Virus record (IMG/VR): IMGVR_UViG_2541047861_000013
DNA: 20,787 nt
Source of the DNA: a virus
Taxonomy: Duplodnaviria > Heunggongvirae > Uroviricota > Caudoviricetes
Direction: 5' to 3' (one strand)
The position numbers and the translations under genes are program-made. Below are positions 14,986 through 20,787 of the stretch, in pieces. The notes below the pieces were generated by a model, which made no database searches, was not told the DNA's origin, and worked only from the letters and a program-made list of their open reading frames with translations. Position 1 is the stretch's first letter; every line of letters starts with the position of its first letter.

Positions 14986-15048
14986 TCACCCATAAGGTAA
15001 CAAAAATCAAGGATAGTTACCTATGAGGTGCATTTACCTGTTGGGTAA
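14986..15048. promoter_or_regulatory. Right-operator-like region with three TTACC-N5-GGTAA-type sites between the Cro-like and repressor genes
   Basis: TCACCCATAAGGTAA (14986-15000), TTACCTATGAGGTGC (15017-15031), TTACCTGTTGGGTAA (15034-15048, perfect); the last two are 17 bp apart. Confidence 0.6.
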
Positions 15049-15103
15049 TATTGCTTTAAATTGAATCATCTACTGATTCATATATGAGGCGATTTTCCAG
15101 AAA

Positions 15104-15688
15104 ATGAAAAGTATCCAGGACGTCCGCAGGCAAAATCTCAACGACTTGATCGACCGTGAATTCAATGGTGTTCAGACGCGGATGGCAGAAAAACTTGGAA
15201 CTCAGGCAAATCTGGTAAACCGCTGGGCTCTTGGCAAGAAGGTTATCGGCGACCAGGTTGCGCGAAAAATTGAAGCTGCCGCCAATAAACCCCGTAACTG
15301 GCTTGATATCGATCGCTCGCTTTCTCAGGAAGGTTTTCAGCCTGTCGGCCCAAGCGACATTGGTCAGCTGGCGGCTCACAACCTGGAACGCTGGATGAGC
15401 GAAAGCCGCGACCTTTCAACACAGGGAAAACTTCACCGCGCATCCGGCGTCGCCCAGGTGACAATCAGCCGCCTGTTAAACAATGAGGTCAGCGTTTCCA
15501 TTTCCACCCTGGAGAATGTTGCATCCGCATTCGGGCGTCACGGCTATGAATTACTGATTCACCCGCACGACCCTGCGACTATCAACTATGACCGCTCGCG
15601 CTACGCATTGTTACCCGAAACAGAGAAGGCAAAGATCGAAAGTTACATTGAATTTGTCATCAGCCAGAACGAAAAAAACAAACAATAA
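15104..15688 (+). CDS. Phage repressor, CI-equivalent, with two HTH (XRE-type) regions and no LexA-like peptidase domain
   Basis: N-terminal HTH (GVQTRMAEKLGTQANLVNRWALGKK) and a second HTH-like segment (ASGVAQVTISRLLNNEVSVSISTLENVASAFG); no Ser/Lys autoprotease signature; divergent from the Cro-like gene. Confidence 0.65.
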   Translation: MKSIQDVRRQNLNDLIDREFNGVQTRMAEKLGTQANLVNRWALGKKVIGDQVARKIEAAANKPRNWLDIDRSLSQEGFQPVGPSDIGQLAAHNLERWMSESRDLSTQGKLHRASGVAQVTISRLLNNEVSVSISTLENVASAFGRHGYELLIHPHDPATINYDRSRYALLPETEKAKIESYIEFVISQNEKNKQ

Positions 15689-15708
15689 AATCATATTTTT
15701 CAGTAAGT

Positions 15709-15733
15709 AAGCCGCCTCATGGCGGCTTTTTTA
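15709..15733 (+). terminator. Intrinsic terminator after the repressor gene
   Basis: GCCGCC-tcat-GGCGGC followed by TTTTTTA. Confidence 0.6.
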
Positions 15734-15745
15734 TTGCCAGCAAGA

Positions 15746-15822
15746 TTACCTTATGGGTAATTTTTTTAACTCATATCTATTGACATCAAACCAGATACGC
15801 ATAATCATTACCTCAACGGTAA
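15746..15822 (+). promoter_or_regulatory. Left-promoter-like region: TTGACA promoter flanked by two perfect operator sites
   Basis: TTACCTTATGGGTAA (15746-15760), -35 TTGACA (15780-15785), TTACCTCAACGGTAA (15808-15822); the -10 is ambiguous (CATAAT at 14-bp spacing or TAATCA at 16 bp). Confidence 0.55.
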
Positions 15823-15841
15823 CAGACCGAGGTAACAAATT

Positions 15842-15994
15842 ATGCAGTGGAAAATCATCAACGGTTGGTACTGCGTTACTGCATGCGGATTCATGAGCTG
15901 GAAGTTCCGCACCTTACAGGAAGGCATTAAGTGGGCTTTCGTCAGCAAAGAAGCTCGCGATGTGGCCAACGATAACGAGATATGGGAGGGCTGA
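15842..15994 (+). CDS. Hypothetical 50-aa protein, first ORF of the early-left operon
   Basis: ATG at 15842 with GAGGT 9 nt upstream; MQWKIINGWYCVTACGFMSWKF...; below the track's size cutoff. Confidence 0.3.
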   Translation: MQWKIINGWYCVTACGFMSWKFRTLQEGIKWAFVSKEARDVANDNEIWEG

Positions 15995-15996
15995 TA

Positions 15997-16296
15997 ATGA
16001 ACGTTAATCAGCAGAAAAATCTTCAAAAAATCATGCAGGCATTCGACAAGGACTACCACCTGTCAGAACAGCTATATGACCGACAAGTTGAACTGATTGA
16101 GAGCATCCGACTTCATCAACTGTCATCAACTTTCGACGTTGTAACAGGCAAAGGCGTTCGTCAGGAAGTACTGGAGGCTGCTAAAGACAGCCCTGAGTTC
16201 GAAGAACTGATGGATGCCTATCGGCGAGAGGCAATGGCAATTATCGCCCGCTGGGATCTGGCGGATCAGCTTGATGGACAGAAGGACGCGGCATGA
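15997..16296 (+). CDS. Hypothetical protein (99 aa) immediately upstream of the exonuclease gene
   Basis: ATG at 15997 with GGGAGGG SD 6 nt upstream; stop overlaps the exonuclease start (ATGA). Confidence 0.45.
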   Translation: MNVNQQKNLQKIMQAFDKDYHLSEQLYDRQVELIESIRLHQLSSTFDVVTGKGVRQEVLEAAKDSPEFEELMDAYRREAMAIIARWDLADQLDGQKDAA

Positions 16297-17114
16297 AACC
16301 GGGAATTTATTTCGGCATCAGCAACGAAGACTACCACGCAGGTGACGGCGTGAGTAAGTCGCAACTGGACATGGTTGCCAAGAATCCGGCGCTTCTTAAA
16401 TGGGTTCAGGCAGCACCAGAAGACGAAGAGAAAAAGTCTGCATTGGATATGGGAACCGCATTGCACTGCCTGCTTCTGGAACCTGGAGAATTCGACAAAC
16501 GCTTCATCGTGTCACCGAAATTCGATCGTCGGACAAAACAAGGTAAAGCTGACGAAGAAGCATTTCTTCGTGATGTGGCGGATATGGGTATTACGGTACT
16601 TGATGTCGAGCAGTGGCGAAAACTTGAGCTCATGCGTGATAGCGCAATGGCTCATCCGGCGGCACGCTGGATGTTGGAAGCACCTGGTTACTGCGAAGCA
16701 TCAATGTACTGGAACGATGAAGAGACGGGTGAGTTGTGCCGAATTCGTCCAGACAAATGGCTGAACGAGCACAACGTGATCGTCGACGTGAAAAAGGTTG
16801 CAGATATGGACCGTTTTGCACGCCACATCGAGGAATTCCGCTACCACGTGCAGGACGCAATGTACCGCGAAGGCGCAACGAGGGTTACTGGTCAACCGCA
16901 TGGTTTTTTCTTTCTTGCCGTGAGCGAAAGCATTGATTGTGGTCGGTATCCGGTACGCGTGTTCGAGTTGGATGCGCCGGATGTCGATGCCGGGCACGCT
17001 CTGTTCCGCCGGGATCTGAATACCTATCACGAATGCCGCATAAATGATGAATGGGGCGGCGTGGAAATTATTAAACGCCCTGACTGGGCACGTAAACAGG
17101 ATATGTATGTATGA
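16293..17114 (+). CDS. Recombination exonuclease, PD-(D/E)XK family (RecE C-terminal-domain-like)
   Basis: ...CRIRPDKW...IVDVKKV... gives a PD...D.K signature; translationally coupled to the downstream annealing-protein gene (ATGA). Confidence 0.65.
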   Translation: MKPGIYFGISNEDYHAGDGVSKSQLDMVAKNPALLKWVQAAPEDEEKKSALDMGTALHCLLLEPGEFDKRFIVSPKFDRRTKQGKADEEAFLRDVADMGITVLDVEQWRKLELMRDSAMAHPAARWMLEAPGYCEASMYWNDEETGELCRIRPDKWLNEHNVIVDVKKVADMDRFARHIEEFRYHVQDAMYREGATRVTGQPHGFFFLAVSESIDCGRYPVRVFELDAPDVDAGHALFRRDLNTYHECRINDEWGGVEIIKRPDWARKQDMYV

Positions 17115-17992
17115 GCAATGATATCGCAATCACATCACAACCAGGCGCAACTGTAGGCACTGCTGCGGCAATCTTCAGCCCCGAGGGCATGAATCAACTG
17201 GTGCGTTTCGCGGAGTTGATGTCACAAAGCAAAGCGACTGTACCGAAACATCTTGAAGGCAAACCTGCCGATTGCCTGGCGGTGACTATGCAGGCGGCAC
17301 AGTGGGGAATGAACCCTTTCGCCGTGGCGCAGAAAACGCATGTGGTAAACGGAACGTTAGGCTACGAAGCACAGTTGGTAAACGCGGTCGTATCCTCTTC
17401 CAGCCTGCTGGCGACACGCCTGAATTATCGCTGGAGCGGTGACTGGTCGAATGTTAACGGCAAAACAGATAAATCACCGAATCTGACGGTAACTGTGTCA
17501 GCAGTTCTTAAAGGTGAAACAGAACCCCGTGAGCTTACCATCAGTATGGCGCAAGCCGGAGTGCGTAACTCTCCATTGTGGGAACAGGATCCGCGCCAGC
17601 AGCTTGCCTATCTTTGCACGAAACGATGGGCTCGCCTGCACGCTCCTGATGTGCTTCTCGGTGTTTACACCCCTGACGAATTACAGGAAACGGCACCGCG
17701 CGTTGAGCGAGACATTACTCCGCAAACAACTACTGCTGCGGGAATGAACAGTCTGATCAACGCTAAACCAGTGAAAAAGCCTGATGAGCAAACTCGTAAA
17801 GCGGATAGCCGTGATCCAGAAGAAATGCTGATGGCCTTTACCAGCGCAGCGATGAATTACAGCACTGTCTCCGAACTGGATAAGGCTTACAAATACATTG
17901 CACAAAAACTTTCAGATGATGACGAACTGCTGGCAAAAGCCACCGACGTTTACAGCGTTCGTCGGGAAGAATTAAACGAAACATCTATGTAA
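17111..17992 (+). CDS. Single-strand annealing protein, Bet/RecT family
   Basis: C-terminal ...ETAPRVERDITPQ... matches the lambda Bet segment (...QPERDITPVNDE...) from memory; paired with the exonuclease. Confidence 0.65.
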   Translation: MSNDIAITSQPGATVGTAAAIFSPEGMNQLVRFAELMSQSKATVPKHLEGKPADCLAVTMQAAQWGMNPFAVAQKTHVVNGTLGYEAQLVNAVVSSSSLLATRLNYRWSGDWSNVNGKTDKSPNLTVTVSAVLKGETEPRELTISMAQAGVRNSPLWEQDPRQQLAYLCTKRWARLHAPDVLLGVYTPDELQETAPRVERDITPQTTTAAGMNSLINAKPVKKPDEQTRKADSRDPEEMLMAFTSAAMNYSTVSELDKAYKYIAQKLSDDDELLAKATDVYSVRREELNETSM

Positions 17993-18041
17993 CCACCACC
18001 GCGGCGCCACGCGCGCCGCACTGCAACCAAGAGAGGTATTT

Positions 18042-18290
18042 ATGAAAGGTGCATTAGGTAAGAAGGAACTCCTGGCGGTGGTGCCACTGTCATGGAGCAC
18101 TATCGACCGTATGGAGCGCGCAGGGGAATTTCCTAAACGCTGGTATATCACCGATAAACGCTGCGCATGGAACCGTGACGAAGTTGAGCGTTGGCTTGAT
18201 GAACGTCAGGCAGCAAGCCCGGCAGAGTTCCAGGGTAAAAAACCTCCTGTTCAGCAACGTGTATATCGTCCCGTGAGCAACGCTGCATGA
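18042..18290 (+). CDS. AlpA-family DNA-binding protein (putative excisionase/regulator)
   Basis: VPLSWSTIDRMERAGEFPKRWYITDKRCAWNRDEVERWLDER fits the AlpA/Xis-type HTH pattern; GAGAGG SD. Confidence 0.6.
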   Translation: MKGALGKKELLAVVPLSWSTIDRMERAGEFPKRWYITDKRCAWNRDEVERWLDERQAASPAEFQGKKPPVQQRVYRPVSNAA

Positions 18291-18399
18291 GTGCGCTGCT
18301 AAGGCACTGGATCAAATGGTCAGGATGGTACTTATTCCTGGCCTCTGTTTCAGCATGGCTTTATCTGCTGGCATTAATTTTCAGAGAGGGTTGGATTAA

Positions 18400-18699
18400 G
18401 TGAGAAAGTTAAGCCGACTTGAAAAATACCACATGAATAAGGTTTCAATGCGCAGTCCGTCAAAGATTGTCGCCGTTACTCCTGCGGCGATAGAGATCGA
18501 AAAACGCGCGATTGAAAGAGAGAAAAAAGGGCAGTTCCGCATTGCCGCTCACCTTTGGCTTCAGTGTATGGATGTTGCTTCTGGTGATGTTGAACGTGCA
18601 AGGATCGCGGTTCGCAGGGACCAATGTATCACAAAAGGTAACGGCCTTCGCCGTGGCGACTATAGCGGCATAGGATGTTGTGGGGTGGTTTATGACTAA
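18400..18699 (+). CDS. Hypothetical protein (99 aa, GTG start) translationally coupled to the methyltransferase
   Basis: GAGAGGG SD 9 nt before the GTG; its stop TAA overlaps the methyltransferase start (ATGACTAA). Confidence 0.4.
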   Translation: MRKLSRLEKYHMNKVSMRSPSKIVAVTPAAIEIEKRAIEREKKGQFRIAAHLWLQCMDVASGDVERARIAVRRDQCITKGNGLRRGDYSGIGCCGVVYD

Positions 18700-19342
18700 G
18701 AAATACACACTAATCTATGCAGATCCACCCTGGGTATACCGGGACAAAGCCGCAGATGGTAATCGCGGTGCCGGTTTTAAATATCCAGTTATGAGTGTGC
18801 TGGATATCTGCCGCCTTCCTGTGTGGGATTTGACCGCTGAAAACTGTCTGTTGGCCATGTGGTGGGTGCCAACACAACCACTCGAAGCACTAAAAGTTGT
18901 TGAAGCCTGGGGATTTCGTCTGATGACGATGAAGGGCTTCACGTGGATAAAATGTGGTAGTCGACAACCAGATAAACTGGTTATGGGTATGGGACACATG
19001 ACTCGCGCCAATAGTGAAGATTGCCTGTTTGCGGTAAAGGGAAAACTACCTACGCGCATTAATGCAGGGATCGTTCAGTCATTTACCGCACCGCGGCTTG
19101 AGCATTCAAGAAAGCCAGATATCGTTCGTGAAAAACTTGTGCAATTATTAGGCGATGTTTCTCGCATTGAACTGTTCGCCCGCCAGACGTCTCATGGCTT
19201 CGATGTTTGGGGTAATCAGTGCGAAGACCCGGCAGTGCAACTACACCCTGGATACGCGTTGGATATTGGCGGATTAACAAATGCATTCAGCAATGCTCCG
19301 CTGTCACCAACAGACATCCAGGGGCGGGAGCGTGCTGCATGA
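18692..19342 (+). CDS. MT-A70-family DNA N6-adenine methyltransferase
   Basis: N-terminal ...YTLIYADPPW... (DPPW catalytic motif); start set at the ATG at 18692 rather than the track's upstream GTG. Confidence 0.8.
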   Translation: MTKKYTLIYADPPWVYRDKAADGNRGAGFKYPVMSVLDICRLPVWDLTAENCLLAMWWVPTQPLEALKVVEAWGFRLMTMKGFTWIKCGSRQPDKLVMGMGHMTRANSEDCLFAVKGKLPTRINAGIVQSFTAPRLEHSRKPDIVREKLVQLLGDVSRIELFARQTSHGFDVWGNQCEDPAVQLHPGYALDIGGLTNAFSNAPLSPTDIQGRERAA

Positions 19343-19533
19343 ACAGGGCATCACCAGCAGATTTAAGAAAATGCCTTGAAACTGCAAACATGCTTGCACA
19401 CAGCGGGATCAGGTTTGTTCCAATTCCCGCTGTCACTGATGCTGAATTTGCAACACTGTCAGCAATATTCGAAAACAAAATTGAATCACTGGCAGCAGAA
19501 GCAGAGATGGAAGAAAATCAGCAGAACTATTAA
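19339..19533 (+). CDS. Hypothetical protein (64 aa)
   Basis: ATG at 19339 overlaps the methyltransferase stop (ATGA); converges on the integrase 3' end with a 3-bp gap. Confidence 0.45.
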   Translation: MNRASPADLRKCLETANMLAHSGIRFVPIPAVTDAEFATLSAIFENKIESLAAEAEMEENQQNY

Positions 19534-19536
19534 ACG

Positions 19537-20787
19537 TTATTCCCCCGCCATCCACTTCTCAAACTTCGACGGGGAGAACGGAATCAGATCCGTATGCTCC
19601 CCGTCAATCCATGAATCAATCATATCGGCCCACTGCTGCAACATGTAGGCGCGCTGTCTGGCGTATTCCGCTTTGTTATATACGGCGCGCACACCTTTCT
19701 GCTCATGTGCCAGAGCCTTTTCAATCCAGTCTGAAGGATAACCAGCCTCATGCAACAACGTACTGGCTGTACGGCGCATATCGTGTACGGTGAAGCCCTG
19801 AATATGCTCACCATCTTCATTTATTATTTTCACCGTTCTGTCGATCAGAGAGTTCAGCGCGGCATTAGATAATGGCTTCCGGAAATTGTAACGACCAGGA
19901 ACCAGATATTCACTTCCACCAGCGCACATCTGCAACCCAACCAATATATCCTGTGCCTGTTTAGGCAGGTAAATAACGTGCGCCCGGCTTCCCTTCATGC
20001 GGTCTGAAGGAATTGTCCATGTCCATTTTTTAAAATCTATTTCATCCCACGTTGCATTGGTGAATTCGCCTTTACGAACCATAGTGATAAGCACCAGCTT
20101 TAAAGCCATTTTCATAGTGCCCATAGCACCAATGGCATCCAGCGTGCGGAAGAACAGGCCAATTTCTTCTGGTGTCAGTGTTCGCTCTCGTGGTTTAAAT
20201 ATGGCGATAGACGAAGGTTTAATGTCAGCCGCAGGATTAAACAAACCATGACCACGGTCATTGGCGTGACGGTATACGCTGCTGATGATCTCCCTAGCCT
20301 GTACTGCTGTTGCCCGACCACCGCGTTCGACAATCCGGTCACACAAATCACGAACCATCGATGTGGTAATTTCAGCCATCATTTTGTTACCAAGAACAGG
20401 AAGTATGTCACGGTCGATCACCGCCTGCTTCATTGCGCGGGTACTGTCAGCCAGGATGACGTGTTTCATATAACTGTCGGTATGTACCGCAAACGTCTCG
20501 GCACCACGAATCTTTTTGATACCGTCACGTTTAGCCGCAGCCGGTGACTGGCCTGCTTTAAGCAGCTTCTTTGCAGCAATCAGTTCTTCTCGCGCTTCTG
20601 CCAGGCTGATACCGTCACGCCCATACTGCCCGATTACCAGTGTTTCGCGGCGACCGTTGATACGGTAGTCATAGCGAAACGAGACCGTGCCTGACGTAAG
20701 CACAGCTACATACAGCCCGTCACGATCGGAGACCTTGTACAGTTTGTCCTGCGGCTTGAGGTTTTTTAATTTTGTATCGGTAAGCAC
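19537..20787 (-). CDS. int: Tyrosine integrase (P4-type); N-terminus at or just beyond the right window edge
   Basis: 416 aa in window; N-terminal arm-binding-like region (LTDTKLKNLKP...) and C-terminal catalytic region (...HDMRRTASTLLHEAGYPSDWIEKALAHE...YNKAEY...) with the R...H..R...Y pattern. Confidence 0.9.
   Translation of the reverse strand: MLTDTKLKNLKPQDKLYKVSDRDGLYVAVLTSGTVSFRYDYRINGRRETLVIGQYGRDGISLAEAREELIAAKKLLKAGQSPAAAKRDGIKKIRGAETFAVHTDSYMKHVILADSTRAMKQAVIDRDILPVLGNKMMAEITTSMVRDLCDRIVERGGRATAVQAREIISSVYRHANDRGHGLFNPAADIKPSSIAIFKPRERTLTPEEIGLFFRTLDAIGAMGTMKMALKLVLITMVRKGEFTNATWDEIDFKKWTWTIPSDRMKGSRAHVIYLPKQAQDILVGLQMCAGGSEYLVPGRYNFRKPLSNAALNSLIDRTVKIINEDGEHIQGFTVHDMRRTASTLLHEAGYPSDWIEKALAHEQKGVRAVYNKAEYARQRAYMLQQWADMIDSWIDGEHTDLIPFSPSKFEKWMAGE

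What the first reader, a model, noticed from the sequence alone, without database searches (positions are those of the whole stretch)
18316..19533. Integrase-proximal accessory cluster: hydrophobic mini-ORF, 99-aa ORF coupled to an MT-A70 adenine methyltransferase, and a 64-aa ORF
Between the AlpA/Xis-like gene and the integrase lie a possible 27-codon hydrophobic peptide (18316-18399, MVRMVLIPGLCFSMALSAGINFQRGLD, weak SD), a 99-aa ORF whose stop overlaps the methyltransferase start, the methyltransferase itself, and a 64-aa ORF. Orphan phage adenine methyltransferases often act against host restriction. The tight coupling to an unknown partner suggests a two-gene module such as a methyltransferase with a specificity or regulatory subunit, or an anti-restriction pair. 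The region next to int is a recognised cargo hotspot.
Basis: partly seen in the sequence, partly recalled or inferred. Interest (0 to 1): 0.55.

Follow-up and report, generated by a model that had tools for sequence, protein, structure and literature searches.

The report
phiV10-type prophage early accessory genes

Summary
The ORFs exist where stated, but the cluster is ordinary and already annotated. The window is a phiV10-like (Uetakevirus) prophage beside guaA. It is 100% identical to RefSeq E. coli genomes, about 98% to phage phiV10, and present in 559 of 5426 complete E. coli genomes. The 99-aa ORF is a PerC-family protein. The methyltransferase is an orphan MT-A70 enzyme, 83% identical to the studied Stx2-phage enzyme M.EcoPA8orf6770P/M.EcoGV. 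The 64-aa ORF is a lambda Orf63 (DUF1382) homolog. The real gene is a conserved 38-aa membrane peptide at 18287-18403.

All five genes from alpA onward are chained by 4-8 nt overlaps, so coupling is not specific to the PerC/methyltransferase pair. In relatives other genes sit between them. DNA homology breaks exactly at their junction. One identical PerC-like protein occurs with two unrelated methyltransferases. A dedicated two-subunit enzyme is therefore unlikely.

One lead remains. All 17 distinct Uetakevirus-type loci carry an N6-adenine methyltransferase downstream of the PerC-like gene (MT-A70 or Dam). The unrelated YfdN-type PerC proteins of lambdoid phages are likewise followed by Dam or D12 methylases.

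The parts
15780..15808 (+). Sigma-70-like promoter (TTGACA-17-AATCAT), just after a terminator-like hairpin (15709-15728) that follows the repressor-type HTH gene. Likely early-left promoter for the whole + strand operon down to 19533.
   Evidence: It is the only + strand promoter-like site in 15000-20787, and no + strand terminator-like site lies between it and 19533. A consensus match only. In epsilon15 the equivalent interval carries annotated repressor operators.
16293..17992 (+). Recombination module upstream of the finding: PD-(D/E)XK exonuclease (16293-17114) and RecT (17111-17992), overlapping by 4 nt.
   Evidence: Pfam DUF3799 at 1.1e-21 and RecT at 8e-32. RefSeq annotation.
18042..18290 (+). 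AlpA-type helix-turn-helix protein (82 aa): probable excisionase/regulator.
   Evidence: Pfam Phage_AlpA at 24.2 bits (cutoff 21); phrog_66 'excisionase and transcriptional regulator' at 2e-16. 85% identical to epsilon15 gp33.
18287..18403 (+). 38-aa single-pass membrane peptide. This is the real small gene. Its start overlaps the alpA stop (ATGA) and its stop overlaps the PerC-like GTG start (GTGA).
   Evidence: phrog_17484 over full length, E 2.5e-26. 82% identical in epsilon15/SPN1S with substitutions 6/3/13 by codon position. Annotated in phiV10, epsilon15, SPN1S and Tyrion. Found in 7 of the 8 species loci (all but L116).
18316..18399 (+).
   Evidence: No family hit. The frame is not conserved and is not hydrophobic in epsilon15/SPN1S.
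18400..18699 (+). PerC-family protein, 99 aa from GTG 18400. RefSeq starts it at ATG 18448 (83 aa) and the phiV10 record at ATG 18433 (88 aa). Four predicted helices plus a conserved C-terminal tail, ...GVVYD.
   Evidence: Pfam PerC at 6e-07 (30.1 bits, cutoff 22.6); phrog_868 at 5.7e-62 over 1-99 of 99. The long form is supported three ways: nearly invariant Y10/H11 upstream of the RefSeq start, an ATG at the equivalent position in epsilon15, and a predicted helix at residues 6-18. AF2 pLDDT 75.7. No significant PDB fold match; the best is MIT/TPR-like at E 0.33.
18676..18699 (+). Conserved coupling junction GGGGTGGTTTATGACTAA. It encodes the PerC-like C-terminus (G-V-V-Y-D-stop), a Shine-Dalgarno-like GGGGTGG, and the ATG of the next gene. 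It is also the module (recombination) boundary.
   Evidence: The same junction precedes MT-A70 (window, L107) and Dam (L112, L115). DUF1317 in SPN1S and Tyrion and gp30 in epsilon15 show the same 8-nt overlap (coordinates). blastn homology to relatives breaks at 18699/18701, and homology to Stx2 phage PA8 starts at 18691.
18692..19342 (+). Orphan MT-A70 N6-adenine methyltransferase (216 aa, DPPW at residues 11-14).
   Evidence: Pfam MT-A70 at 4.2e-22 over 1-172 of 172; phrog_359 at 5e-120. PADLOC MTase_II at 2.1e-78. PDB hits to MT-A70/METTL3 chains, 6e-13 to 4e-4. 83% identical over residues 1-187 to M.EcoPA8orf6770P and 78% to the epsilon15 methylase. ATG 18692 matches the homologs' N-terminus, MTKKYTLIYADPPW.
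19339..19533 (+). Lambda Orf63-like protein (DUF1382, 64 aa). Its start overlaps the methyltransferase stop (ATGA).
   Evidence: Pfam DUF1382 at 1.8e-30 over 1-60 of 60. PDB 8DSB (lambda Orf63) at E 8.5e-13. 51% identical to Stx2 phage PA8 gp4, which also follows and overlaps that phage's MT-A70 gene.
19537..20787 (-). P4-type tyrosine integrase, convergent with the operon. guaA lies beyond it in the source genome.
   Evidence: Pfam Arm-DNA-bind_3, Phage_int_M and Phage_integrase. RefSeq context.

Best explanation
The interval is the integrase-proximal end of the early-left (recombination/excision) operon of a phiV10-like Uetakevirus prophage inserted beside guaA.

After infection or induction, one transcript from the repressor-controlled promoter near 15.8 kb runs through exo, recT and then five short genes. 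These five are translated as a chain through 4-8 nt stop/start overlaps:
1. An AlpA-type excisionase/regulator.
2. A 38-aa single-pass membrane peptide.
3. A PerC/Pch-type all-helical protein with no helix-turn-helix. By family analogy it most likely modulates transcription through protein or nucleoprotein contacts, for example by relieving H-NS silencing.
4. An orphan MT-A70 N6-adenine methyltransferase. It most likely methylates DNA in a Dam-like (GATC) manner, giving anti-restriction protection or full methylation of replicating phage DNA.
5. A lambda Orf63-like dimeric early protein, which is pro-lytic in lambda.

The PerC-like gene and the methyltransferase are separate mosaic modules. 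They are joined at a conserved coupling junction that accepts different downstream genes. They are not a dedicated two-subunit enzyme.

Shown here: gene identities, conservation, operon architecture, module boundaries, and replacement of the methyltransferase family in the same slot. Inferred: the transcript, all biochemical activities, and the DNA target.
For: Identity and prevalence:
- 100% identity to annotated E. coli chromosomes and 98.4% to phage phiV10, with the same gene calls.
- Present in 559 of 5426 complete E. coli genomes.
- Family assignments.

Conserved order:
- The order AlpA / 38-aa / PerC-like / ... / adenine methyltransferase / int holds in epsilon15, SPN1S, Tyrion, Klebsiella phages and 8 further species.

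Evidence for separate modules:
- Intervening DUF1317, winged-helix, DndB-like or gp30 genes occur in relatives.
- Homology breakpoints fall at 18699/18701, and Stx2-phage homology starts at 18691.
- The conserved junction serves MT-A70, Dam, DUF1317 or gp30.
- The identical PerC-like protein P0094 occurs with a C5-Dam fusion (L104) and with MT-A70 (L105).
- None of 29 MT-A70 proteins with N-terminal extensions carries a PerC domain.
- MT-A70 genes in distant phages have unrelated upstream neighbours.

Evidence for a DNA target:
- In 4 of 17 distinct loci the same slot holds a Dam (PF05869) DNA methylase, once fused to a C5 DNA methylase.
- The close homolog M.EcoGV is listed with GATC specificity (PMC6602927 Table 3; PMC10810198 discussion).

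PerC mechanism:
- Pch relieves H-NS silencing (PMC4764244).
- The AF2 model is helical with only weak MIT/TPR-like resemblance and no HTH.

Orf63: dimeric, early-expressed and pro-lytic in lambda (PMC10869804).
Against: - No expression or biochemical data exist for this phage group in the literature I could search.
- The nearest studied enzyme (83% identical) was reported to be weak and non-specific alone, and to methylate 16S rRNA once bound to its upstream partner PNB-2 (PMC10810198). A DNA-only role is therefore not secure.
- The PerC Pfam match covers only profile positions 5-50 of 90. The ANR NCBIfam score (23.6) is below its cutoff (32). Transfer of the anti-H-NS mechanism is weak.
- The invariable presence of an adenine methyltransferase downstream of PerC-type genes in two phage lineages hints at a functional link that 'independent modules' does not explain.
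- The promoter is a consensus match only.
Confidence: 0.7

Rival explanations
1. Functional (not physical) link. PerC-domain proteins and phage N6-adenine methyltransferases form a recurrent regulatory pair. The PerC-like protein might control methyltransferase expression in the way a controller protein does, or it might act on promoters or nucleoprotein complexes whose state depends on adenine methylation.
For: - All 17 distinct Uetakevirus-type loci examined have an N6-adenine methyltransferase downstream of the 99-aa PerC-type gene: 13 MT-A70 and 4 Dam PF05869.
- In L112 and L115 Dam sits at exactly the junction that MT-A70 uses in the window.
- In an unrelated lineage, the YfdN-type proteins of SfV/CPS-53-like lambdoid phages (N-terminal domain plus PerC domain; hhalign 92% to the 99-aa family) are directly followed by a methylase in about 7 distinct intact arrangements. 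It is Dam PF05869 in K-12 yfdN-yfdM, SfV, Kp4866-6 and L098-L103, and a D12-class methylase PF02086 in F1055 and L097.
- Three methyltransferase families in two lineages amounts to non-orthologous displacement beside a constant partner.
Against: - Each lineage keeps its own fixed gene order, so this is effectively two independent observations.
- Methylases occupy the same lambdoid slot without any PerC gene, as in Pasteurella phage Pm86.
- Rearranged prophages keep the PerC domain after losing the methylase.
- From my own knowledge, not tested here: canonical PerC (EPEC perABC) and the EHEC pch genes are not known to neighbour methylases.
- There are no PerC-methylase domain fusions other than an apparent yfdN-yfdM frameshift product.
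- No paper in the library links the two.
Confidence: 0.2
2. The 99-aa protein is a specificity or regulatory subunit that binds the MT-A70 enzyme, analogous to PNB-2 of Stx2 phages. The pair might then act as an RNA (16S rRNA) methyltransferase.
For: - The 83%-identical M.EcoPA8orf6770P is weak and non-specific alone. It co-purifies 1:1 with the product of the overlapping upstream gene PNB-2, which directs it to 16S rRNA (PMC10810198).
- Here too the upstream gene overlaps the methyltransferase start.
- The 99-aa protein looks like a helical protein-interaction module (MIT/TPR-like, weak) rather than a DNA binder, and it has a conserved, low-confidence C-terminal tail.
Against: - PNB-2 and the 99-aa family show no homology (BLAST none, hhalign about 1%).
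- Relatives insert other genes between the two. In Tyrion a separate 75-aa winged-helix gene occupies the PNB-2-like position.
- One identical PerC-like protein is paired with unrelated methylases.
- Homology breaks at the junction.
- Conservation of the tail is also explained at the nucleotide level, because it carries the SD and ATG of the next gene.
- The window enzyme's C-terminal 29 residues differ from the PA8 tail that the authors propose is needed for PNB-2 binding.
Confidence: 0.08
3. The 27-codon hydrophobic ORF (18316-18399) is a real translated peptide.
For: An ATG-initiated ORF with a hydrophobic stretch exists in this sequence and in phiV10.
Against: - It lies wholly inside, and out of frame with, the conserved 38-aa gene.
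- In epsilon15 and SPN1S its frame is charged and open-ended.
- It has no family hit, while the 38-aa frame has a full-length PHROG match and a third-position substitution bias.
Confidence: 0.02

Closest known systems
Escherichia phage phiV10 genes PhiV10p36-p32 (NC_007804) and the equivalent genes of Salmonella phage epsilon15 (gp33-gp29)
   Same: Same genes in the same order with the same overlaps. About 98% nucleotide identity to phiV10. Protein identity to epsilon15 is 78-85% for AlpA, the 38-aa peptide, PerC-like and MT-A70.
   Different: - epsilon15 has a 35-aa gp30 and a 46-nt gap between the PerC-like gene and the methylase. After the methylase it carries a membrane protein annotated as a 'transacetylase repressor' instead of DUF1382.
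- The phiV10 record annotates RecE-RecT as one fused gene, whereas the window has two genes.
M.EcoPA8orf6770P / M.EcoGV with PNB-2 (Stx2a phage PA8 gp5-gp6; Gong et al., NAR 2023, PMC10810198)
   Same: - MT-A70 enzyme 83% identical over residues 1-187, with the DPPW motif.
- Orphan, and integrase-proximal in a temperate phage.
- The upstream gene overlaps its start.
- Followed by an overlapping DUF1382/Orf63-like gene.
   Different: - The upstream gene here is PerC-like, not PNB-2, and no homology is detectable.
- The C-terminal ~29 residues differ.
- DNA homology is confined to the methyltransferase core, 18691-19223.
- rRNA methylation and its effects on virulence and induction were shown only for the Stx2 phage.
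PerC / Pch family (PF06069): EPEC PerC and EHEC PchA-C, anti-H-NS activators of LEE1
   Same: Pfam match above the gathering threshold. A small, helical protein carried on horizontally transferred DNA (PMC4764244).
   Different: - Only the ~46-residue core aligns.
- This subfamily (phrog_868) is a conserved early gene of Uetakeviruses in Salmonella, Klebsiella, Enterobacter and other hosts that lack LEE, so its primary target must be phage- or host-general.
- No activity has been tested.
E. coli K-12 CPS-53 yfdN-yfdM and SfV orf40-dam (YfdN-type PerC-domain protein followed by phage Dam)
   Same: A PerC-domain gene immediately upstream of, and overlapping or abutting, an N6-adenine methyltransferase gene in a temperate phage.
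   Different: - YfdN-type proteins are 150-175 aa with an extra N-terminal domain.
- They sit after the replication genes of lambdoid phages, not next to int.
- The methylase is Dam PF05869 or D12 PF02086, not MT-A70.
Lambda exo-xis region protein Orf63 (DUF1382; PDB 8DSB; PMC10869804)
   Same: The 64-aa protein aligns over residues 2-62 (E 8.5e-13). It also lies between the recombination genes and int/xis in the early-left operon.
   Different: A different phage type (podovirus, P4-type integrase). Here the gene is translationally coupled to a methyltransferase. Its function in this phage is untested.

Membership tests
MT-A70 N6-adenine methyltransferases (PF05063) | Profile match above the curated threshold across the whole domain | tested here: met
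   79.3 bits against a cutoff of 23.9; residues 9-180 cover profile positions 1-172 of 172.
MT-A70 N6-adenine methyltransferases (PF05063) | Catalytic DPPW motif | tested here: met
   LIYADPPWVY at residues 7-16 of the 216-aa protein. The same motif was mutated in the PA8 homolog (PMC10810198).
MT-A70 N6-adenine methyltransferases (PF05063) | SAM-dependent m6A formation, and the identity of the substrate (DNA or RNA) | not testable with these tools
   Inferred only, from homologs: M.EcoGV is listed as GATC (PMC6602927), and M.EcoPA8orf6770P-PNB-2 acts on 16S rRNA (PMC10810198).
Two-subunit M.EcoPA8orf6770P-PNB-2 type enzyme | A PNB-2 homolog encoded immediately upstream | tested here: not met
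   No BLAST similarity. hhalign of the PNB-2 family against the 99-aa family gives probability 1.2%.
Two-subunit M.EcoPA8orf6770P-PNB-2 type enzyme | The C-terminal ~27 residues of the methyltransferase proposed to be needed for PNB-2 binding | tested here: not met
   Identity to PA8 gp5 ends at residue 187. The tails are unrelated (PMC10810198 discussion).
Type II restriction-modification system | A cognate restriction endonuclease adjacent to the methyltransferase | tested here: not met
   The neighbours are the PerC-like gene, the Orf63-like gene and the integrase. PADLOC hits only MTase_II. The enzyme is therefore an orphan.
PerC family (PF06069) | Profile match above the curated threshold | tested here: met
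   30.1 bits against a cutoff of 22.6, but only profile positions 5-50 of 90. RefSeq names it a PerC family transcriptional regulator.
PerC family (PF06069) | Activation of H-NS-silenced promoters (LEE1) | not testable with these tools
   Known for Pch (PMC4764244). No data exist for this subfamily.
ANR (AraC negative regulator) family, NF033650 | Score above the NCBIfam cutoff | tested here: not met
   23.6 bits against a cutoff of 32.
Lambda Orf63 / DUF1382 (PF07131) | Full-length profile match and similarity to the solved Orf63 | tested here: met
   105.2 bits over 1-60 of 60. 8DSB at E 8.5e-13 over residues 2-62.
AlpA/excisionase-type HTH (PF05930) | Profile match, and a position next to a P4-type integrase | tested here: met
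   24.2 bits against a cutoff of 21; phrog_66 at 2e-16. The integrase lies at 19537-20787. Excision activity was not tested.
Uetakevirus (epsilon15/phiV10-like) early-left operon | Conserved order: repressor, small ORFs, exo, RecT, AlpA, 38-aa, PerC-like, adenine methyltransferase, int | tested here: met

The most novel reading that the evidence does not exclude
PerC-domain proteins are conserved functional companions of phage N6-adenine DNA methyltransferases. In two unrelated temperate-phage lineages a PerC-type gene is always followed by an adenine methylase. The methylase family (MT-A70, Dam PF05869 or D12 PF02086) can be swapped while the PerC-type gene stays. This suggests a switch that depends on or controls methylation, for example an anti-silencing factor acting together with adenine methylation of incoming phage DNA. 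It would also imply that the PerC/Pch virulence regulators of EPEC and EHEC descend from such a phage module.
Probability: 0.2. Interest if true: 0.55.

Novelty: already known. Interest (0 to 1): 0.22.

Why it matters
As it stands the finding matters little. It re-describes annotated accessory genes of a prophage family carried by about a tenth of complete E. coli genomes.

Three things are worth keeping:

1. The close relationship to the Stx2-phage MT-A70 enzyme. That enzyme's activity (GATC DNA or 16S rRNA) is disputed and depends on a partner that is absent here. The phiV10-type enzyme is therefore a natural PNB-2-less comparison for settling what this clade methylates.

2. The recurrent pairing of PerC-type genes with adenine methylases. 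This includes the K-12 cryptic-prophage pair yfdN-yfdM. It is a cheap, testable lead on the unknown native role of the PerC/Pch family.

3. Annotation corrections. RefSeq omits the 38-aa gene and truncates the PerC-like start.

Tried and rejected
1. PNB-2 as a divergent PerC/YfdN-type protein. A MAFFT alignment looked suggestive. hhalign rejected it: probabilities of 0.4% and 1.2%. The Tyrion winged-helix protein against PNB-2 gave 1.4%.

2. Rosetta-stone fusions. The 1.84-billion-protein HMMER search with the methyltransferase gave 12007 hits. Among the best 150, 29 proteins had N-terminal extensions of 75 residues or more. These extensions carried ParB_N, HTH and other domains, and never PerC. 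PerC+Dam, PerC+RusA and PerC+HTH 'fusions' among YfdN-type hits are deletion or frameshift products of degraded prophages.

3. A viral-contig scan with the methyltransferase returned only near-identical phiV10-like loci, which was useless for diversity.

4. tblastn of the 99-aa protein against the phage collection at E<=1 found only Uetakevirus-type phages, so other PerC subfamilies could not be sampled this way.

5. The small ORFs downstream of the methylase in relatives were tested for hidden DUF1382 homology. None was found; they are at least five unrelated kinds.

6. GATC content of the window: 79 observed against about 81 (mononucleotide model) or 109 (Markov model) expected. There is no avoidance or clustering signal.

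7. A fold search of the 99-aa model against the PDB gave no significant hit (best E 0.33, MIT domains). A PDB sequence search also gave nothing.

8. A co-fold of the 99-aa protein with the methyltransferase was not attempted. The structure tool takes one chain and accepts only window or database sequences.
Full report
**What the window is**

Region 17990-19540 is 100% identical to several RefSeq E. coli chromosomes. It occurs in 559 of 5426 complete E. coli genomes, and 537 of them hold at least 80% of it. It is 98.4% identical to Escherichia phage phiV10. The first 710 bases are about 78-80% identical to Salmonella phages epsilon15 and SPN1S and to Enterobacter phage Tyrion, all classified as Uetakevirus. 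The whole 20.8-kb window aligns to phiV10-like phages at about 97-98%.

In E. coli BCE049 the integrase at the window's end abuts guaA. The finding therefore lies at the integrase-proximal end of a phiV10-type prophage.

**Checking the observation**

Three are real, conserved genes:

| ORF | Coordinates | Assignment | Evidence |
|---|---|---|---|
| 99 aa | 18400-18699 | PerC family | Pfam 30.1 bits (cutoff 22.6); phrog_868 'transcriptional activator' over full length, E 5.7e-62 |
| Methyltransferase | 18692-19342 | MT-A70 | Pfam 79.3 bits, full domain; DPPW at residues 11-14 |
| 64 aa | 19339-19533 | DUF1382 | Pfam 105 bits, full length |

RefSeq and the phiV10 record already carry these names.

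The 27-codon 'hydrophobic mini-ORF' is a frame error. The conserved gene over that DNA is 18287-18403, in another frame. It encodes a 38-aa single-pass membrane peptide. Evidence for the 38-aa frame:
- A full-length match to phrog_17484 (E 2.5e-26).
- 82% identity in epsilon15 and SPN1S, with substitutions concentrated at third codon positions (6/3/13).

**Operon architecture**

It is one link in a chain:
- alpA / 38-aa: ATGA
- 38-aa / PerC-like: GTGA
- PerC-like / methyltransferase: 8 nt
- methyltransferase / DUF1382: ATGA
- exo / recT upstream overlap in the same way

The only + strand promoter-like site in 15000-20787 is at 15780-15808. It lies just after a terminator-like hairpin that follows the repressor-type gene. 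No + strand terminator-like site follows before 19533. This fits a single early-left transcript, as annotated for epsilon15. It remains an inference.

The 99-aa reading from GTG 18400 is better supported than RefSeq's 83-aa call or phiV10's 88-aa call:
- Residues Y10 and H11 are nearly invariant across 47 homologs.
- epsilon15 has an ATG at the equivalent codon.
- The structure model places a helix at residues 6-18.

**Is the PerC-like protein a partner of the methyltransferase?**

The idea is reasonable on the literature. The window enzyme is 83% identical over residues 1-187 to gp5 of Stx2a phage PA8 (M.EcoPA8orf6770P). Gong, Chakraborty and Koudelka (PMC10810198) reported three things about that enzyme:
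- It is weak and non-specific alone.
- It co-purifies 1:1 with PNB-2, the product of the overlapping upstream gene.
- As a holoenzyme it prefers 16S rRNA.

The evidence here goes against transferring that model.

1. PNB-2 and the 99-aa family are not detectably related. BLAST finds nothing and hhalign gives 1.2%.
2. In other Uetakeviruses the two genes are separated:
   - gp30 plus a gap in epsilon15;
   - DUF1317 plus a DndB-like DGQHR protein in SPN1S;
   - DUF1317 plus a 75-aa winged-helix gene in Tyrion;
   - DUF1317 in Klebsiella phages.
3. blastn homology to those relatives breaks exactly at 18699/18701. Homology to the Stx2 phage begins at 18691 and ends at 19223. The junction is therefore a mosaic boundary.
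4. The junction sequence GGGGTGGTTTATGAnTnA encodes the PerC-like C-terminus G-V-V-Y-D/E, an SD-like run, and the next gene's ATG. It is conserved whichever gene follows: MT-A70 (window, L107), Dam (L112, L115), and DUF1317 or gp30 elsewhere (coordinates). This also offers a nucleotide-level reason why the tail is conserved although it is modelled with low confidence (pLDDT < 50 for residues 88-99).
5. One identical PerC-like protein (P0094) occurs upstream of a 635-aa C5-methylase/Dam fusion in one genome and upstream of MT-A70 in another.
6. Among MT-A70 proteins with N-terminal extensions drawn from a 1.84-billion-protein search, none of 29 carries a PerC domain.
7. MT-A70 genes in more distant phages have unrelated upstream neighbours: a head-morphogenesis protein, replication protein P, an HNH nuclease, and an unknown.

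A dedicated PerC-like/MT-A70 heteromer is therefore unlikely. I put it at about 0.08.

**What the methyltransferase most likely does**

It is an orphan. No endonuclease gene is nearby, and only MTase_II models hit in PADLOC.

Across 17 distinct Uetakevirus-type loci an N6-adenine methyltransferase always lies between the PerC-like gene and int. The loci are the window/phiV10, epsilon15, SPN1S, Tyrion, two Klebsiella phages, four metagenome or genome contexts, and seven further distinct loci from the species-representative genomes.
- 13 loci carry MT-A70.
- 4 loci carry Dam PF05869, once fused to a C5 DNA methylase.

Replacement by bona fide DNA methylases in the same slot points to DNA adenine methylation as the selected function here. 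So does the GATC specificity listed for the Stx2-phage homolog M.EcoGV (PMC6602927 Table 3; discussed in PMC10810198). An rRNA activity like that reported for the Stx2 phage cannot be excluded.

GATC frequency in the window is unremarkable.

**The other proteins**

The 64-aa protein aligns to the solved lambda Orf63 (PDB 8DSB, E 8.5e-13). Orf63 is a dimeric, early-expressed, pro-lytic protein of the exo-xis region with a fold seen only in temperate phages (PMC10869804). The same DUF1382 gene follows and overlaps the MT-A70 gene in Stx2 phage PA8. In other Uetakeviruses the position after the methylase holds unrelated small genes: coiled-coil, winged-helix-like, cysteine-rich, or membrane proteins. 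This confirms that the integrase-proximal end is a variable cargo zone.

The 99-aa protein is modelled as four helices (pLDDT 75.7). It has no significant structural neighbour. The best, non-significant matches are MIT/TPR-like three-helix modules (E 0.33), and there is no helix-turn-helix. The characterised family member Pch activates LEE1 by displacing H-NS-type silencing complexes (PMC4764244). By analogy I propose that the phage protein modulates transcription or nucleoid silencing early in infection. This is inference only. The ANR model scores below its cutoff.

**A lead noticed on the way**

PerC-domain genes sit directly upstream of adenine methyltransferases in a second, unrelated setting. 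These are the YfdN-type proteins (about 150-175 aa; PerC domain at the C-terminus; hhalign 92% to the 99-aa family) of SfV/CPS-53-like lambdoid phages. They lie between the replication genes and rusA. What follows them:
- Dam PF05869 in E. coli K-12 (yfdN-yfdM), SfV, Klebsiella phage Kp4866-6 and several Salmonella prophages.
- A D12-class methylase PF02086 in Salmonella phage F1055 and a Salmonella Muenchen prophage.

Rearranged prophages can lose the methylase and keep the PerC domain.

In total, three methyltransferase families in two lineages follow a PerC-type gene. This could reflect a functional link at the level of adenine methylation rather than physical binding. It could also be conserved synteny counted twice. 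No paper in the searchable library links PerC to adenine methyltransferases in phages. I give the functional-link reading about 0.2.

**Verdict**

- Supported: an orphan adenine methyltransferase in a cargo zone.
- Not supported: a dedicated two-gene module.
- Corrected: the 'unknown' proteins are PerC-family and Orf63-family members.

Everything here is already annotated in phiV10 and RefSeq, so novelty is 'already known' and interest is low. Two modest, testable leads remain: the PerC/adenine-methylase association, and the value of this PNB-2-less enzyme as a comparison for the disputed Stx2-phage MT-A70.

Noticed in passing
window 18287-18403 and 18400-18448; L001 3301-3459: RefSeq (PGAP) annotation of the identical E. 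coli BCE049 sequence has no CDS for the conserved 38-aa membrane peptide. It starts the PerC-family gene at ATG 18448 (83 aa). Conservation supports GTG 18400 (99 aa). The phiV10 record uses a third start (18433, 88 aa).
   Followed up: yes
L085 8113-8882 (E. coli K-12 CPS-53 yfdN-yfdM); L086, L087, L088, L097-L103: YfdN is a PerC-domain protein (Pfam 8.1e-09). It abuts the truncated Dam-family gene yfdM. Its homologs in SfV, F1055, Kp4866-6 and Salmonella prophages are always followed by an adenine methylase, either Dam PF05869 or D12 PF02086. Together with the Uetakevirus pattern this gives a recurrent PerC-then-methylase arrangement that I found in no paper.
   Followed up: partly
L104 3466-5373 (Kosakonia cowanii prophage): In the methyltransferase slot of this Uetakevirus-type prophage there is one 635-aa ORF. 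It combines an N-terminal C5-cytosine methylase motif (GGTPCQAFSIAG) with a C-terminal Dam PF05869 domain. The gene caller had recorded only the last 184 aa.
   Followed up: partly
L093 1509-3094 (Salmonella phage SPN1S); also L111 3948-5605 (Citrobacter werkmanii): A 331-aa DndB-like DGQHR protein (Pfam DndB 1.3e-42) overlaps the start of the MT-A70 gene by 4 nt. This is a different candidate partner for the same methyltransferase clade.
   Followed up: no
L094 3463-4327 (Enterobacter phage Tyrion): A 75-aa winged-helix protein (HTH_24/MarR-like) overlaps the MT-A70 start by 11 nt. The arrangement mirrors PNB-2/gp5 of Stx2 phages, although hhalign finds no homology to PNB-2 (1.4%).
   Followed up: partly
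window 18691-19223 versus L004 2323-2855 (Stx2a phage PA8): Nucleotide homology (78.6%) between a podovirus-type prophage and a Stx2 phage covers only the methyltransferase core. It starts one base before the start codon. The DUF1382 gene that follows in both is only 51% identical at protein level. The pattern looks like exchange of a methylase cassette between unrelated temperate phages.
   Followed up: partly
P0087; L118 3354-3671 (Klebsiella pneumoniae ATCC 13883): Some relatives carry an in-frame fusion of the 38-aa membrane peptide to the C-terminal two-thirds of the PerC-like protein. An internal deletion removes the first PerC-like helices.
   Followed up: no
window 16293-17992 versus L002 743-2503 (phiV10) and L106 712-1611: The phiV10 record annotates a single RecE-RecT fusion CDS where the window has two overlapping genes (a PD-(D/E)XK DUF3799 exonuclease and RecT). 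Other relatives use a YqaJ-type exonuclease instead. The recombination module is therefore also mosaic.
   Followed up: no
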